12,595 nucleotides of DNA. It comes from a virus (lineage: Duplodnaviria > Heunggongvirae > Uroviricota > Caudoviricetes). Position 1 is the stretch's first letter, and every line of letters starts with the position of its first letter. Location: the IMG/VR virus record IMGVR_UViG_2541047122_000015. One strand, given 5' to 3'. Position numbers: made by a program. Shown in pieces: positions 3,001 to 12,000 of this stretch.

Positions 3001-6000
3001 ATTTACCTCTGGCACCACATATCGGGCAGGGGCCGCTATAATGTTTCAAGCCAGTAACAGGAGGCATGCCGTAATATTCAAAAATTCGCCCCCAATGCCC
3101 GGCCGCTGCCTTCTTAGTCTGCATGCTGGCCTCCTGTCATGGCTTTCTTGCGCCCTTTGGCATAGGCAATGGTCTTTGACTTGATGAAGTTGTACACTTC
3201 AACTGAGGTTTGCAGCGGCGCATTACTGAAGCCTTTAGGCCACACACCGAACTTCTCCTTGTAGGTATGAGCGCACCATCCGTCACTCAGGGGTTTACCC
3301 GTCGCGTTGCGGTAATTCTGATACCCCTTGATCTCACTCCACCAACGCTGCTTTTCCTCGCGACTGTATTCGCGTTTCCCTTTGTTTACGCGAGAGAGTT
3401 TTCGATCGCGGTCTGTTGCCACATCATCGCCACCAAGAGGACGAAACCCACATTTGGGACACATGTGTACACCAGCAGGCTTCATGAAGTGGCATTTGGG
3501 GCATTCTCTGGGAAGTTTCTCAGCCTTAACCTCGCCACCGCCAGCAGACGCTTTCATTCCGTCATTTTTACCCGGCAGTTCGTCATACTCGATATCCTCG
3601 GGGAAGCCCAGCCGATGAACCGTACCAGAATGGTCGAAAATCAACGCACGTTTTTTACCTGGGGCTGTACGTAACGCTCTACCTATGCACTGCAACCAAC
3701 GGATTTCTGATTTTGTCGGACGGGCGTAGATCAGGCAGCGAACATCGCTGTCAAATCCCGCAACCAGTACACCAACGTTGACAATTATTTTGGTCGCGCC
3801 CTCTTCAAAACGGCGAATGATGTCCTGTCGTTCATCATGGAGGGTATCTGCCGTCATCACCTCTGCGCCAATACCGGCCTGTAAAAACTCACGGGTAACA
3901 AAATTCGCATGCGCAACATTCACGCAGAAGCAGATCGTCGGCAAATCCTCGCCATTCTCAAGCCAGTTGCGAACGATATCGCCAACCAGATCCGAACTCC
4001 CCATGATGGATGCGAGCTGCTCCTCGTTGTAATCCCGTCCAAATACGGTGTTACTGGTTTTTACGCCAGCCAGATCAGGCATTGAAGGGGCAAAAAACTC
4101 GTAATCGCTCAGATCACCACGCTGAATAAGTTCACGAATCGTTGTAGGCTTGATCAGGCATTCGTAGTACTTCCCCATCCAGGCTGCGAACGGGGTGCCG
4201 GAAAGTCCAAGAACCCTGATGTCTCTGTCCCGGATAACCTCAAGTAACGCACGACGCTTCATGTGTGCTTCATCGATGATCAGCAGATCGATGTTGTCAG
4301 GAAACTCACGACGGATCAGCGTGTCGGCACTGGCAATCTGAATCAGTCGTGACGGGTCATAGTTAGGGTGATCACGCCATACAAAACTGATTTCTTCCCA
4401 CGGCAAACCGTATTCGGTGAAACGTTCCGCTGTCTGGTTCAGCAGGATGGTGTACGGACAGACAAACATCACCCGCATACCACGTTCAACCATTCCGGCA
4501 GTGACGAATGCTGCAAGACCAGTTTTGCCAGAGCCAGTGGGTGCATACATCAGGTACGTGCGATGCTGTTTCCACTGGTGCCGCAGCTGGTTTAAACCGC
4601 GCTCCTGAGCAAAGTTTGGGGTGATTTTCAGCATGACGCCCCCTTGCCATTCGCCGGGATGATATCGATCCCAGCATCGCTATAACTGGTCAGTTTCTTT
4701 GGCATTCGAAGCAACACAAAGCCTTCAGTGCCACGACGTGCCAATTCACGCAATTTCATGACTGAGCGGGATCGCGGAGAGCTACGATCGATCTCGATAG
4801 CCACACTCCCACCAGTTTTTGCTGTTGCGAGAATATCAACACGGAAATTTCTGCCATCGATTCTTACTGTGACATTGCTTGCCACATGCATCCCCTGTGA
4901 CTCAAGGAGCGTTACAACATCAGCCAGAAAGCTGTAACGCTCCTCTGTTCTCAGTGGTACAGTGCTCAGTGTACGGATCAGTGCCGATTTGGTTGCTGCT
5001 GACATAGTCTATCACTCAATAGTTAGCTCGATAATTATTTCACCAGAAACTATCGCGCGCTTATACAGTGATCTACCTAACCTATGTACCTGCCTTCTGG
5101 CCTAGGCCAAGGGATACAGGCCTTACCAACGACTCCACCCCCTTACCCCCTCCTCGCTTCCTTTCAGGAAATTAGTTGCATGTGAAATTATTTCTAGCAC
5201 AACTAACCGCCATCATGGTGTCGGGGGAAACTTCCGTACCGCTACTGGCGAAAGCATCCAGCCACGGCTGGCTCTCGCGTACTTCTGGACATACACCCGT
5301 AACCGGGTGTTGGCGCTCCGTCTTGCCCTGTTGCCCTTCCTGAACGATACAGGCTCCTTGTCCCACTCTTCCTGGTACACTCTCGCGTACTCTGCTGCAA
5401 TTTTTACCCGGGTGGTCGGGTCTAGCTGTAACAATTGCTCCTGTATCCAGTCCCGATCAGCATCACAGTACTGCTCGGGCATAACCGTTTTGATTTGCCT
5501 GTTCACTCACACCTCCGATGGGCTGTGTGTCCAGGATTAATCATCGCCTCTTACGAACGCAGGGAACGGTCGAACCTCTTCCGCCTCAACTCTGCCGTCA
5601 TCAAAGGTTTTGACGTAAATTTCACGTCCGACGAGAAGCGCTTTACTGATCGCGCTCTGCGCCACACCAAAGTCCTTAGCGGCTTTCTTCTGACCGAACC
5701 TGTATACGTAATCAGCCAGGGTCTCTTTTTTCATCGCCATAACTGACTCCTTCAAAATGCCCATATCATTACGCACGGTTATTAAAATGTCAACACCGCA
5801 GATATTTCATTACATATAACCAAAGGTGATATGGTATGAACATGAAAAAGAAACCGTTAACCCCTGAGCAACTGGAAGACGCCAAGCGTCTGAAAAGTAT
5901 TTTTAACGCTAAAAAGAAAGAGTTAGGCCTGTCGCAGGAATCATTAGCCTATGAATTAGGTGTTACCCAAAGCGCTGTTAATCAGCTAATGGCTGGCATC

Positions 6001-9000: not shown

Positions 9001-12000
9001 GCACCTTCTCATCTTATTCACTTCAACGGAGTGCGATTTCTTGGCCCCTACTCTACTGAATGAGAACAGGACCAGATAAATAGCCCGGCCCATGCGCCGG
9101 GTTTTTCTTTGCATATCCCCTCCTGTTATCTGCCCCCTTAAAAAATAAATCACTTTAAAAATCAGTTAAGTAATAATTTCTCGCCCTTAAAAAGCACCAA
9201 CGGTATTTACATGAAAATCACCGCAAGTTATATTTATTTCAAGCCAGAAACATCGCGCCCTTACACAGGGCTACATAAATCAGTCGTACGGCGCGACTTA
9301 ACCCGCCGCAAAATGCTCTTTAACAATCTGGAGCTTTACAGCGTCAATGACCTGTTTAGACCCCTACACGTAAACGTGCTGTATCATCGGGTGCGATCCG
9401 GTCGATGAGAGAGTATCCCCGCGCGAGAGCGAGAACGGCGTGAGAACGGGCAACACTGGCAGGAAGTTGGCGCTGACCAATACAGGGAATGTTTTGGGGT
9501 GCAGGCGGCACCGCCAAAGCGTTTCTGAGAAAGGACGGTATTGACTGCGTGTGATGTCGGGGCTATATTTGGCGAACACCTCATAAAACGGGTGTCGGGA
9601 TTGCTACCCCGCTGACAATCGAGGCGATACAGACGCGCCAGCGTCTTTTTTTTGTATCGACATACACGCACATCTTATCAATGGTGGGCTGTATGGGGCC
9701 GACTTCGGTCGGGCTGGTTCCCTTGATTGCCAGTTGTAGCAACCCTGTACAGTCCACCGCCAGCGAGCTTGCTACCTCCAGCGGTGGTTATCAATCACCA
9801 ATCAAGGAGGCTGCCATTATGGCTACTATCCCAGTCCTTTCTCAACCTGAAATCACCATTTCCAATGGTCGCGCTGTTACTACGTCCTTTGCCGTTGCCG
9901 AATATTTTTGCAAGCGACACGATAACGTATTGCGCGCCATTGCAAATATTGAATGCTCAGAGAAATTTAACGCCCTCAATTTTGAGGACGTTACCTACAC
10001 CGACGCCAAAGGCGAGCAACGCCCAATGTACCAAATCACCAAAAACGGATTCGTTTTCCTGGTGATGGGGTTCACTGGCAAAAAAGCCGCCGCTTTCAAA
10101 GAAGCCTACATTGCTGAATTCGATCGCATGGAAAAACAACTATGGGAACAGAAACAACTGGCCCTGTCTTCTCCTGCGATGAATATCAATTTTCCTTTAT
10201 CGTGGTTTTCAGAGCATCACCCCTACGCCACGATGAACTATGTTGATCGCAAGGTTATCAGCCTTGATGCTTCCGTGCTCTTCGATATGCCAAGCCCAAC
10301 TATGCGCATCCTCAACGAACTACACAGCAAGGGCTATAACGTCGATGCGGCTGTCGCCGAATTTAACGCCTTCAAGCATCTGACGGAAGAAATGCGCCGT
10401 CAATTGCTGGATATTTCCCGTACATCAGAAAAGTCTTCCCGCTTTGGTTTCAACGTAAATCTTTAATTAACCCCATCCCCGACCACATATCGGGGATTAA
10501 ATTAAATATCTGGATTAATTAACCGGAGGATTTGTCATGCTCAAACCTCACTACGGAACCGCATTAGTTTCTCGCGAGGACGTTAAACCCGGTACAGCAA
10601 TTCTTTACAACGGGCGTTATTACATGGCGTCAGCGAACGTTAATAATGCACTTTACGCACATTCACTGATTGAAAAAATTCGCATTATCTCAGATGCAAT
10701 AGAAGTTTACCTGAACAATAAAGGCCAACCGTTAATCTCACCAGCCTGAAAGGAAATATCATGCTCAATCAAAAAATAAATATCAATGTAAAAAGCGTCG
10801 TAACTCCAGCAGGAACGATAATGGGAGAAGTTTTTATGGATGATAAAATCATCGCCTATTTTGTCGTCCTGTCTGATGAGGCTATTTCTGTTATTGATAC
10901 GGAAGGCAATGTTATGTTTATCGCGGAACATCCAGAAGACATCGCATTACAGGCCGCTGCATATTTCTTCGCTAAGGAGCAGGAGGAAGAATGTAACTGC
11001 CCTGTATGTCAGCTTTCCCGACAAATTAATTTAATGCATTAACCGGAATCAGGAGTTCCGCCATGAACGCATACCTCACCTGCGACCGCATAGAGGAGCG
11101 TCGCTGGATTAATCAGCAAATTCAGGATGAAAAGGATAAATGGATTGATGATCGGGCGCAGGAGCTTATCAGCATGTTCCCCGATAAACCATTGCTTATG
11201 AGCAGCCTTTTTTTACCCAAAGAAGCCCAACTGGCACTCACTGGCGAAAAAGCTGAAGAGGCGTACAACGATTATATCTCAGCGATCGCCTATGCTCGGG
11301 CGGAAGAAGAATGGGAGAGAAAATTCTCCCCCTGTCCTTTCTGATTTTCAGGACCAAAAAATGTTCGATATCGTTGAATTTGTTAAGCAGCAGGAGCGCT
11401 TTTTCTGCGAGGCATTAACTGAACCGACGCTGACATGGGCGAAGGAAAGTCAGTTTGCAATTCAGCAATTCCAGAAAAATGACTTTCTGGCTAAAACAGC
11501 ACAGGCAAATCTGCCCAGCGCACAGAACGCTATCATCAATGTTGCCGCCATCGGCATAACCCTGAACCCGTCCAGCAAGCTGGCGTATCTGGTCCCACGA
11601 GGCGGTGCTGTATGCCTGGATATCAGTTATATGGGACTTCTGCATCTGGCACAGGTCACAGGAGCCATTCAGTGGGGGCAATGCAAACTTGTTTACGAGA
11701 AGGACATTTACGAGTCCAACAGTATTGACTGCGCCCCCACGCACAAATACAACCCATTCGTCGACAGGGGCGCACGCATTGGCGGTTATTGTGTCGTCAA
11801 AACATCCGAAGGCGACTATCTGACCGAAGAGATGAGCAACAGGGAAATCGAAGTCATCAGGGCGTGCAGCAAGGCCGGAGGGAAAGGAGGAACTAGCCCG
11901 TGGGATAGTTTCCCCGATGAAATGGCCAGAAAAGCCATTGTTAAGCGCGCCAGCAAATACTGGCCCCGTCGCGATCGCCTGGATACAGCTATCGACTACC

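What the first reader, a model, noticed from the sequence alone, without database searches (positions are those of the whole stretch)
5836..9110. Type II restriction-modification cassette in the rexAB slot of a lambda-like immunity operon
Directly downstream of cI, on the same strand, are a gamma-class N6-adenine methyltransferase (NPPY) and a translationally coupled putative PstI/BsuBI-like endonuclease (ATGA overlap), closed by an intrinsic terminator just before the PL-like promoter. This is the position lambda uses for rexAB, so the cassette is probably transcribed from PRM in lysogens, giving the lysogen a restriction barrier against incoming DNA and the prophage a post-segregational addiction function. 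From memory, a PstI-isoschizomer system (CTGCAG) has been described on an Stx2 prophage of E. coli O104:H4; if this is that family it is not new, but the arrangement is biologically important. I found one CTGCAG by eye (2741-2746).
Basis: partly seen in the sequence, partly recalled or inferred. Interest (0 to 1): 0.75.

Follow-up and report, generated by a model that had tools for sequence, protein, structure and literature searches.

The report
Known EcoGIII restriction-modification cassette, Stx-type prophage

Summary
cI (5836-6549) is followed on the same strand by a 489-aa gamma-class N6-adenine methyltransferase (6644-8113, NPPY at residues 136-139). A 317-aa endonuclease (8110-9063) overlaps it by ATGA and carries both Pfam BsuBI/PstI domains (E 1e-54 and 5e-61). 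An intrinsic terminator (9082-9103 plus T-run) and a PL-like promoter (9206-9234) follow.

The 3.3-kb stretch is 99.8-100% identical to 98 deposited phage genomes. These include the Stx2a phages of the O104:H4 outbreak strain. It also occurs in 134-147 of 5,426 complete E. coli genomes.

The endonuclease is 100% identical to that of O104:H4. The methylase differs by three residues. This is the published EcoGIII system: it makes CTGC(m6A)G, cleaves CTGCAG, restricts lambda-like phages and conjugating plasmids, and alters host transcription.

Still inferred: transcription from PRM/PRE together with cI, and the addiction role. Supporting observations:
- There is no terminator or consensus promoter between cI and M.
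- Published lysogen methylomes show 98.8-100% methylation.
- No genome keeps R without M.

Verdict: real, correctly interpreted, already known. The only uncharacterised detail is a conserved 16-bp hairpin between cI and M.

The parts
5537..5776 (-). cro (lambda Cro family), divergent from cI
   Evidence: Pfam Cro 4.9e-33. Annotated as cro in P13374.
5765..5835 (.). OR-like control region. It holds a PR-like promoter on the - strand (TTGACA-17-AATGAT, 5793..5765) and operator-like sites (5792-5807 and 5811-5830). PRM must lie here, but it was not located by consensus.
   Evidence: Promoter scan. Inverted match of 5811-5830 to 9217-9236 (I3). Pattern search, which does not exceed chance on its own.
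5836..6549 (+). cI repressor (HTH plus S24 autopeptidase)
   Evidence: Pfam HTH_3 8e-10 and Peptidase_S24 9.5e-29. Protein identical to P13374 CI.
6563..6603 (+). Conserved 16-bp-stem hairpin in the cI-M intergenic region, with no T-run after it. A second small hairpin lies at 6609-6627, just before the M ribosome-binding site (AAAGAGGA).
   Evidence: Inverted repeat I9, 93% complementary. RNA fold of 6547-6650 gives -35.7 kcal/mol, z = -3.56, and 0 of 200 shuffles fold as well. The stem is conserved in F004 and PhiR12_3, while the loop and the downstream sequence differ.
6644..8113 (+). M.EcoGIII-type gamma-class N6-adenine DNA methyltransferase (CTGCAG). FGQFMTP lies at residues 27-33, motif I DAGAGVG at 56-62 and motif IV NPPY at 136-139 (nt 7049-7060).
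   Evidence: Pfam Eco57I 3.3e-9. PADLOC MTase_II 3.1e-248 over the full length. PHROG 1600, 3e-302. Three residues differ from P13374 and one from strain 95JB1.
8110..8113 (+). ATGA overlap: the M stop codon (TGA) overlaps the R start codon (ATG)
   Evidence: Read directly from the sequence.
8110..9063 (+). R.EcoGIII-type BsuBI/PstI-family type II restriction endonuclease (N-terminal HTH domain plus C-terminal PD-(D/E)XK-type domain)
   Evidence: Pfam BsuBI_PstI_RE_N 1.2e-54 and BsuBI_PstI_RE 4.6e-61. SdaI structure 2ixs 1.2e-77. PADLOC REase_II 1.6e-168. 100% identical to the P13374 and 95JB1 proteins.
9082..9111 (+). Intrinsic terminator that closes the cI-M-R unit (8-bp stem with 6 G-C pairs, 6-nt loop, T-run)
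   Evidence: Terminator scan. Fold -16.2 kcal/mol. F004 has an equivalent but different terminator.
9206..9236 (+). PL-like promoter (TTTACA-17-TATATT) with an embedded operator-like site ATCACCGCAAGTTATAT
   Evidence: Promoter scan, 10 of 12 matches. Inverted similarity to OR 5811-5830. This region is replaced in the phage of the second immunity type, F004.
2741..2746 (.). The only CTGCAG target site in the window (inside the primase gene)
   Evidence: Exact search. The same site is present in P13374.

Best explanation
The segment is the EcoGIII type II restriction-modification system, a PstI/BsuBI isoschizomer pair that recognises CTGCAG. It is carried as accessory cargo in the immunity operon of a short-tailed lambdoid (Stx-type, Sepvirinae/Oslovirus) prophage of E. 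coli.

Shown here or published:
- M is a gamma-class SAM-dependent N6-adenine methyltransferase that makes CTGC(m6A)G.
- R is a two-domain BsuBI/PstI-family endonuclease that cuts unmethylated CTGCAG.
- Lysogens carrying near-identical alleles are fully methylated. They restrict lambda-like phages and incoming plasmids.

Inferred:
- The pair is transcribed with cI as one cI-M-R message, from PRM in the lysogen and probably from PRE during establishment. The message ends at the terminator at 9082-9111, just before OL/PL. This is the position lambda uses for rexAB.
- The M-before-R order, the ATGA overlap and the rare codons early in R favour methylase before nuclease when the phage enters an unmethylated host. 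There is no controller (C) protein.
- Because R without M would cut about 2,400-2,900 host sites, the pair also resists loss of M alone (addiction-like behaviour).
For: - Domain matches.
- 99.8-100% nucleotide identity of 5836-9110 to 98 phage records, including O104:H4 phages P13374 and phiON-2011, TL-2011c, PA2/PA8, VT2phi_272 and Ss-VASD.
- Presence in 147 of 5,426 complete E. coli genomes, 134 of them full length.
- R identical to, and M 3 residues from, the O104:H4 proteins. C227-11 itself is among the hits.
- The REBASE EcoGIII rare-codon positions match the window.
- Published function:
  - PMC6602927 reports 100% of 2,390 and of 2,434 CTGCAG sites m6A-methylated in 95JB1 and 95NR1. The 95JB1 M differs from the window's by one residue.
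  - The same paper summarises Fang et al. 2012: EcoGIII methylates and cleaves CTGCAG, protects against lambda-like phages and affects about 1,900 genes.
  - PMC3893438 reports 98.8% methylation in RM13514, which carries the system in its Stx2a prophage, and 0% in RM13516, which lacks it.
  - PMC4288162 shows that EcoGIII in recipients reduces pESBL conjugation.
- Purifying selection between two lineages: M has 35 synonymous and 15 nonsynonymous differing codons; R has 44 and 7.
- Operon inference: same strand, a 94-nt gap with no terminator-like or consensus promoter-like site on the + strand, and a terminator only after R.
- M and R are intact together in 134 genomes, and no genome has R without M.
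Against: - No transcript data were examined, so PRM/PRE co-transcription is positional inference.
- A very stable hairpin (6563-6603) sits between cI and M. It could attenuate or process the message.
- A weak promoter undetected by the consensus scan cannot be excluded.
- The window's M allele carries Y295, where the three comparators have C295. Its activity has not been shown directly.
- The primary paper (Fang et al. 2012) was not available in the library. Its results are cited through later papers.
- The addiction role is supported only by gene co-occurrence.
Confidence: 0.93

Rival explanations
1. The cassette is EcoGIII, but it is expressed from its own promoter in the cI-M gap or the 3' end of cI. 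The conserved hairpin ends or processes the cI message. R-M expression would then be independent of the repressor circuit.
For: - A 16-bp-stem hairpin lies directly after the cI stop codon and is conserved even where the cargo differs (PhiR12_3). It therefore looks like a property of the end of cI.
- Its arms contain TTGACA on both strands.
- Lambda itself has an internal promoter for rexB (textbook knowledge; not tested here).
Against: - The consensus scan finds no sigma-70-like site on the + strand between 5836 and 7307.
- The hairpin has no T-run, so it is not a canonical intrinsic terminator.
- The module shared between the two immunity types starts inside cI (6138) and ends at 9082. cI's 3' half and the R-M pair therefore travel as one unit.
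Confidence: 0.2
2. The endonuclease is inactive or decaying in this prophage. The methyltransferase then acts as an orphan epigenetic regulator rather than as half of a restriction barrier.
For: - EcoGIII is reported to alter expression of about 1,900 host genes.
- Decay does occur in relatives: ArgO145 has a disrupted R with M intact, and PhiR12_3-type prophages keep only the last third of R.
Against: - The window's R is full length and 100% identical at protein level to the R of O104:H4. PMC3893438, citing Fang et al., states that this enzyme is biochemically active.
- Synonymous changes far outnumber nonsynonymous ones in R (44 to 7) between lineages.
Confidence: 0.04
3. The methyltransferase is the prophage-encoded 16S rRNA methyltransferase described for phages PA2 and PA8 (Gong et al. 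2023), not a DNA modification enzyme.
For: - PA2 and PA8 match the window at 99.8%.
- The M protein has weak sub-threshold matches to RrnaAD and KsgA (E 1e-3 and 5e-4).
Against: - The published rRNA methyltransferase is a different gene: gp5, M.EcoPA8orf6770P, of the MT-A70 family with a DPPW motif.
- The window's M has NPPY, matches type II DNA MTase profiles over its full length and is paired with a cognate endonuclease.
Confidence: 0.01

Closest known systems
EcoGIII R-M system of the Stx2a prophage of E. coli O104:H4 (C227-11, P13374, phiON-2011); Fang et al. 2012, as cited in PMC6602927, PMC3893438 and PMC4288162
   Same: - Same genes, same order and same position after cI.
- R is 100% identical. 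M is 486 of 489 residues identical. The DNA of 5836-9110 is 99.8% identical (8 substitutions).
- Same terminator and same PL-side junction.
   Different: - Three M substitutions: V61, A286 and Y295 in the window against L, T and C.
- The surrounding prophage differs downstream. It lacks a 930-bp segment present in P13374, and an IS3-family element interrupts recT.
PstI (Providencia stuartii) and BsuBI (Bacillus subtilis) type II R-M systems
   Same: - Same Pfam endonuclease family, with both domains.
- Gamma-class N6-adenine methylase.
- Same recognition sequence, CTGCAG, according to the published EcoGIII work.
   Different: - Here the genes are tandem, M then R, with a 4-nt overlap, and are embedded in a phage immunity operon.
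- From memory, not checked here: the pstI and bsuBI gene pairs are chromosomal and divergently transcribed.
- Percent identity to PstI or BsuBI themselves was not computed.
SdaI restriction endonuclease (PDB 2ixs; CCTGCAGG)
   Same: Full-length homology (E 1.2e-77, residues 8-315 against 14-322). This implies the same architecture: a winged-helix DNA-binding domain plus a nuclease domain.
   Different: - SdaI recognises an 8-bp site that contains CTGCAG.
- In the alignment, SdaI has EAVKS where the window's R has ESVTS, with T244 in place of the lysine.
Lambda rexA-rexB (immunity-operon exclusion genes)
   Same: - Same slot: downstream of cI on the same strand, and upstream of OL/PL.
- Same general logic: a lysogen-expressed defence against other phages.
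   Different: - No homology. No Rex family match was found.
- The mechanism is DNA restriction and modification, not abortive infection through membrane depolarisation.

Membership tests
EcoGIII / PstI-BsuBI type II restriction-modification system | Endonuclease with BsuBI/PstI N-terminal HTH domain and C-terminal nuclease domain | tested here: met
   Pfam PF17728 1.2e-54 (residues 7-143) and PF06616 4.6e-61 (residues 155-307). SdaI 2ixs 1.2e-77.
EcoGIII / PstI-BsuBI type II restriction-modification system | Adjacent cognate gamma-class N6-adenine methyltransferase (motif X, then motif I, then NPPY, with the target-recognition region C-terminal) | tested here: met
   FGQFMTP at residues 27-33, DAGAGVG at 56-62 and NPPY at 136-139. 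PADLOC MTase_II over the full length, 3.1e-248. Assigning this motif order to the gamma class rests on the published MTase classification, recalled from memory.
EcoGIII / PstI-BsuBI type II restriction-modification system | Sequence identity to the characterised EcoGIII proteins | tested here: met
   R 317/317 and M 486/489 identical to O104:H4 phage P13374. C227-11 chromosome: R 100% and M 99.5% nucleotide identity. REBASE EcoGIII rare-codon positions match.
EcoGIII / PstI-BsuBI type II restriction-modification system | m6A methylation of CTGCAG in the host | not testable with these tools
   Published for near-identical alleles: 100% of sites in 95JB1 and 95NR1 (M one residue from the window's) and 98.8% in RM13514. 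Not measured for the Y295 allele.
EcoGIII / PstI-BsuBI type II restriction-modification system | Cleavage of unmethylated CTGCAG and restriction of incoming DNA | not testable with these tools
   Reported for the identical R protein: active enzyme, restriction of lambda-like phage and reduced plasmid conjugation.
Immunity-operon cargo in the lambda rexAB position (lysogen-expressed from PRM/PRE) | Located between cI and OL/PL, on the cI strand, and closed by a terminator | tested here: met
   Gene order cro(-), cI(+), M(+), R(+), terminator 9082-9111, PL-like promoter 9206-9234.
Immunity-operon cargo in the lambda rexAB position (lysogen-expressed from PRM/PRE) | Co-transcription with cI (no intervening terminator or promoter) | tested here: inconclusive
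   The scan finds no terminator-like or promoter-like site on the + strand in 6550-6643. A stable hairpin without a T-run is present there. There are no transcript data.
Immunity-operon cargo in the lambda rexAB position (lysogen-expressed from PRM/PRE) | Homology to RexA or RexB | tested here: not met
   No Rex family hits in Pfam, PHROGs or PADLOC. The analogy is positional and functional only.
Controller (C-protein)-regulated type II R-M systems | Small HTH controller gene and C-box upstream of R | tested here: not met
   No ORF lies between cI and M (94 nt), and M and R overlap. The only HTH proteins nearby are cI and cro.
Post-segregational-killing (addiction) R-M modules | Loss of M with retention of R is lethal | not testable with these tools
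   Comparative data are consistent. M is full length in 134 genomes and R in 134. Five genomes hold only an R remnant and no M. None has R without M.

The most novel reading that the evidence does not exclude
The conserved 16-bp hairpin (6563-6603) between cI and M may be a regulatory element, such as a partial attenuator or an RNA-processing or stability site. It would set the ratio of repressor to R-M and, together with the M-R overlap, replace the missing C-protein. The phage's lysis-lysogeny circuit (PRE burst, then PRM maintenance) would then time methylation ahead of restriction when a naive, unmethylated host is lysogenised. I found no description of such coupling of R-M establishment to a repressor circuit for EcoGIII.
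Probability: 0.2. Interest if true: 0.35.

Novelty: already known. Interest (0 to 1): 0.12.

Why it matters
- **Biological importance.** The system matters, but it has already been studied. It gives STEC lysogens, including the 2011 O104:H4 outbreak strain, a restriction barrier against phages and plasmids. It methylates thousands of host sites and has reported effects on host transcription.
- **Value for annotation.** The window carries an intact, almost certainly active copy. RefSeq names its M only 'Eco57I restriction-modification methylase domain-containing protein'.
- **What remains open.** How the R-M pair is expressed and safely established from within the immunity operon has not been shown.

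Tried and rejected
1. **The M gene as the PA8 rRNA methyltransferase (PMC10810198).** Rejected. That enzyme is a different prophage gene (gp5, MT-A70 family, DPPW motif).
2. **Avoidance of CTGCAG as a signal.**
   - The window has 1 site against 3.0 expected (P = 0.20).
   - The whole P13374 genome has 12 against 14.8 expected from composition, or 22.9 by the higher-order estimate.
   - CTGCAG ranks 41st of 64 six-base palindromes by observed/expected.
   - There is no clear avoidance, so the phage depends on its own M.
3. **Defining the operators by a pattern search.** Three matches were found, against a chance mean of 1.67. This is not significant on its own.
4. **Reading the primary EcoGIII paper (Fang et al. 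2012).** Not held by DOI or PMC id, so its findings are cited second-hand.
5. **Literature searches for transcript evidence of a cI-M-R message, or for a description of the slot.** Nothing relevant was found.
6. **NCBIfam.** No model matches R, and M has only sub-threshold hits.
7. **An internal promoter-like site in M at 7308-7335.** It scores 9 of 12, and the scan as a whole found no more sites than shuffled sequence gives (4 against 5.2). It is not treated as evidence.
8. **Large protein-database searches and structure prediction.** Not run, because identity to a characterised system made them unnecessary.

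
Full report
**Observation**

The window is the early/immunity region of a lambdoid prophage, drawn in the opposite orientation to the usual lambda map.

On the - strand lie:
- a Q-like antiterminator
- NinG- and NinB-like genes
- a primase and a helicase
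- a cII-position ORF
- cro (5537-5776; Pfam Cro 4.9e-33)

On the + strand lie:
- cI (5836-6549; HTH_3 plus Peptidase_S24)
- a 489-aa ORF (6644-8113)
- a 317-aa ORF (8110-9063)

The 489-aa protein matches the Pfam Eco57I methylase domain (3.3e-9). It matches a PADLOC type II methyltransferase profile end to end (3.1e-248). Its motifs are FGQFMTP at residues 27-33, DAGAGVG at 56-62 and NPPY at 136-139 (nt 7049-7060). That motif order is the one that defines gamma-class N6-adenine methyltransferases.

The 317-aa protein carries both BsuBI/PstI endonuclease domains (1.2e-54 and 4.6e-61). It matches PADLOC REase_II (1.6e-168) and aligns over its whole length with the SdaI crystal structure 2ixs (1.2e-77).

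The M stop and R start codons overlap as ATGA at 8110-8113. An intrinsic terminator follows R: an 8-bp stem with 6 G-C pairs, then a T-run, at 9082-9111. A PL-like promoter, TTTACA-17-TATATT, lies at 9206-9234. It contains a site (9217-9236) related to an OR segment at 5811-5830.

**What it is**

The 3,275-bp stretch is 99.8-100% identical to 98 of 50,697 deposited phage genomes. All of these are Stx-type short-tailed lambdoid phages. They include the O104:H4 outbreak phages P13374 and phiON-2011, TL-2011c, PA2, PA8, VT2phi_272 and Shigella phage Ss-VASD.

The stretch is also found in 147 of 5,426 complete E. coli genomes, always on the chromosome. The P13374 record annotates the same order: cro, cI, 'DNA methylase', 'restriction endonuclease'.

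At protein level:
- cI and R are identical to those of P13374.
- M differs from the P13374 methylase at three residues (V61L, A286T, Y295C).
- M differs from that of strain 95JB1 only at residue 295.

Strain C227-11, in which the system was characterised, is among the hits. It carries R at 100% and M at 99.5% nucleotide identity.

PMC6456624 lists rare codons near the start of the REBASE EcoGIII genes: R has AUA15, CCC21 and AGA22, and M has CUA5 and CCC17. The window has exactly these codons at these positions.

This is therefore the EcoGIII restriction-modification system.

**What is known about it**

The primary paper (Fang et al. 2012, Nat Biotechnol 30:1232) is not in the library. Later papers summarise it.

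  - It states that the system affects 1,951 genes in C227-11, gives resistance to other lambda-like phages and influences growth.
  - It finds 100% of 2,390 and of 2,434 CTGCAG sites m6A-methylated in the O111 lysogens 95JB1 and 95NR1.
- PMC3893438 finds 98.8% of CTGCAG sites methylated in O145:H28 RM13514, which carries the genes in its Stx2a prophage.
  - It finds 0% in RM13516, which lacks them.
- PMC4288162 shows that EcoGIII expressed in recipients lowers conjugative transfer of pESBL.

**How it most likely works**

Shown, here or in the literature: M methylates the adenine of CTGCAG on both strands, and R cuts unmethylated sites.

Inferred from the anatomy:
- The pair is transcribed as part of a cI-M-R message.
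  - All three genes are on one strand.
  - The cI-M gap is 94 nt, and the scan finds no terminator-like or consensus promoter-like site on the + strand there.
  - The only terminator follows R.
- Full methylation in uninduced lysogens shows that M is made in the lysogenic state. PRM is the promoter known to be active in that state in lambda.
- There is no controller protein. Methylase-first timing, needed when a naive host with about 2,400-2,900 unprotected sites is lysogenised, would rest on three things:
  - gene order
  - the ATGA overlap
  - the rare codons early in R

The phage itself carries 12 CTGCAG sites (14.8 expected), so it is not self-immune by site avoidance.

**Comparative evidence**

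In the phage collection, the endonuclease occurs only in the same 98 records that carry this cI 3' half.

Twenty-three of those records have a different cro and cI N-terminal half, which is a second immunity type. F004 is an example. Homology to the window runs from inside cI (6138) to just before the terminator (9082), at 95.5% identity. The C-terminal half of cI and the R-M pair therefore move as one module.

Between the two lineages, synonymous codon differences far outnumber nonsynonymous ones: 35 to 15 in M and 44 to 7 in R. Both genes are under purifying selection.

Among complete E. coli genomes:
- M is full length in 134.
- R is full length in 134.
- Five genomes hold only the last third of R and no M.
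- None has R without M.

The remnant form is seen in phage PhiR12_3, where window positions 6604-8746 are replaced by about 160 bp of unrelated sequence. Phage ArgO145 has a disrupted R with M intact. This pattern is what a toxic-if-unprotected nuclease predicts. It fits, but does not prove, the addiction idea.

**The one uncharacterised feature**

A hairpin with a 16-bp stem lies directly after the cI stop codon (6563-6603). The 104-nt leader folds at -35.7 kcal/mol, with z = -3.56, and none of 200 shuffles folds as well.

The stem is conserved in F004, which has a one-base insertion in the loop. It is also conserved in PhiR12_3, where the loop and everything downstream differ. It has no T-run, so it is not a canonical terminator. 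It could tune or process the cI-M-R message, or simply stabilise the cI 3' end. This is the only place where something new might be learned.

**Rejected leads**

The 'prophage-encoded rRNA methyltransferase' of phages PA2 and PA8 is a different gene (gp5, MT-A70 family, DPPW motif). Rex homology is absent, so the rexAB comparison is positional only.

**Verdict**

The system is already known and experimentally characterised, and it is widespread in STEC prophages. Interest is low. The open points are the promoter and transcript structure and the role of the conserved hairpin.

Noticed in passing
window 9541-9764 (+): The place where lambda has N, downstream of the PL-like promoter, holds two Rfam RNA genes. 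One is an isrK-like Hfq-binding sRNA (9576-9651; 61.8 bits against a gathering score of 50). It has its own promoter-like site (9541-9569) and terminator (9631-9646). The other is a C4 antisense RNA (9677-9764; 77.4 bits against 45). C4 overlaps the start of a Rha/Ash-type regulator gene (9681-10466). This resembles a P1/Gifsy-type antirepressor control module. The F004 phage record already annotates both as ncRNAs.
   Followed up: partly
window 6563-6603 (+): A very stable hairpin with a 16-bp stem lies between cI and the methylase gene. Its stem is conserved in relatives even where the downstream cargo differs (PhiR12_3). Its function is unknown.
   Followed up: partly
window 12204-12595: An IS3-family (IS1203-like) element is inserted about 108 bp before the end of the RecT-like recombinase gene (11292-12239). 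Window positions 1-12203 are 100% identical to several STEC chromosomes that lack this insertion.
   Followed up: partly
window 10184-10399, against L001 10348-10563 and 11278-11493: The window lacks about 930 bp that P13374 has between the Rha gene and the kil-like gene. P13374 annotates that segment as antB2 and 'antitermination ORF26'. A 216-bp stretch occurs once in the window but matches both edges of the P13374 segment. This suggests deletion or duplication by homologous recombination. PhiR12_3 has the short form too.
   Followed up: partly
window 6138 (inside cI) to 9082; L003 5001-7946: Two immunity types share the same R-M cassette. Twenty-three phage records have a different cro and cI N-terminal half but the same cI C-terminal half plus M plus R, at about 95% identity. 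A recombination joint therefore lies inside cI, at the boundary between its domains.
   Followed up: yes
L002 (PhiR12_3) 4839-4998; window 6604-8746: A decayed form of the cassette exists. All of M and the first two thirds of R are replaced by about 160 bp of unrelated sequence that begins exactly at the end of the hairpin. Five complete E. coli genomes carry this remnant.
   Followed up: partly
window 8110-9063, residue T244 of R: In the alignment with SdaI (2ixs), SdaI reads PD...EAVKS and the window's R reads PD...ESVTS. A threonine sits where SdaI has a lysine. From memory, not checked here, that lysine belongs to SdaI's PD-(D/E)XK-type motif. The identical EcoGIII enzyme is reported to be active.
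   Followed up: no
window 7526-7528, residue 295 of M: The window's M has Tyr295, where P13374, 95JB1 and F004 all have Cys. The allele is shared by at least 12 complete genomes that are 100% identical over 5836-9110. Its effect is unknown.
   Followed up: no
profiles phrog_1639 (838 positions) and PADLOC PDLC03359 (840 positions): Both profiles span M (about positions 1-510) and R (about 522-840) as a single protein. Fused or read-through M-R gene models therefore exist among relatives.
   Followed up: no
P13374 whole genome (L004 plus L005): All 12 CTGCAG sites of P13374 lie between 20.9 and 48.2 kb. There are none in the first 20.9 kb (from int to the R-M/cI side, about 5 expected) and none in the last 12.7 kb. 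This may be chance.
   Followed up: no
window 1-73 (-): A tRNA gene with anticodon CAT, called tRNA-Met by ARAGORN, lies at the window edge, downstream of Q and of a short methylase-like ORF fragment (114-266). From memory, this is the position where Stx phages carry tRNA genes ahead of stx.
   Followed up: no
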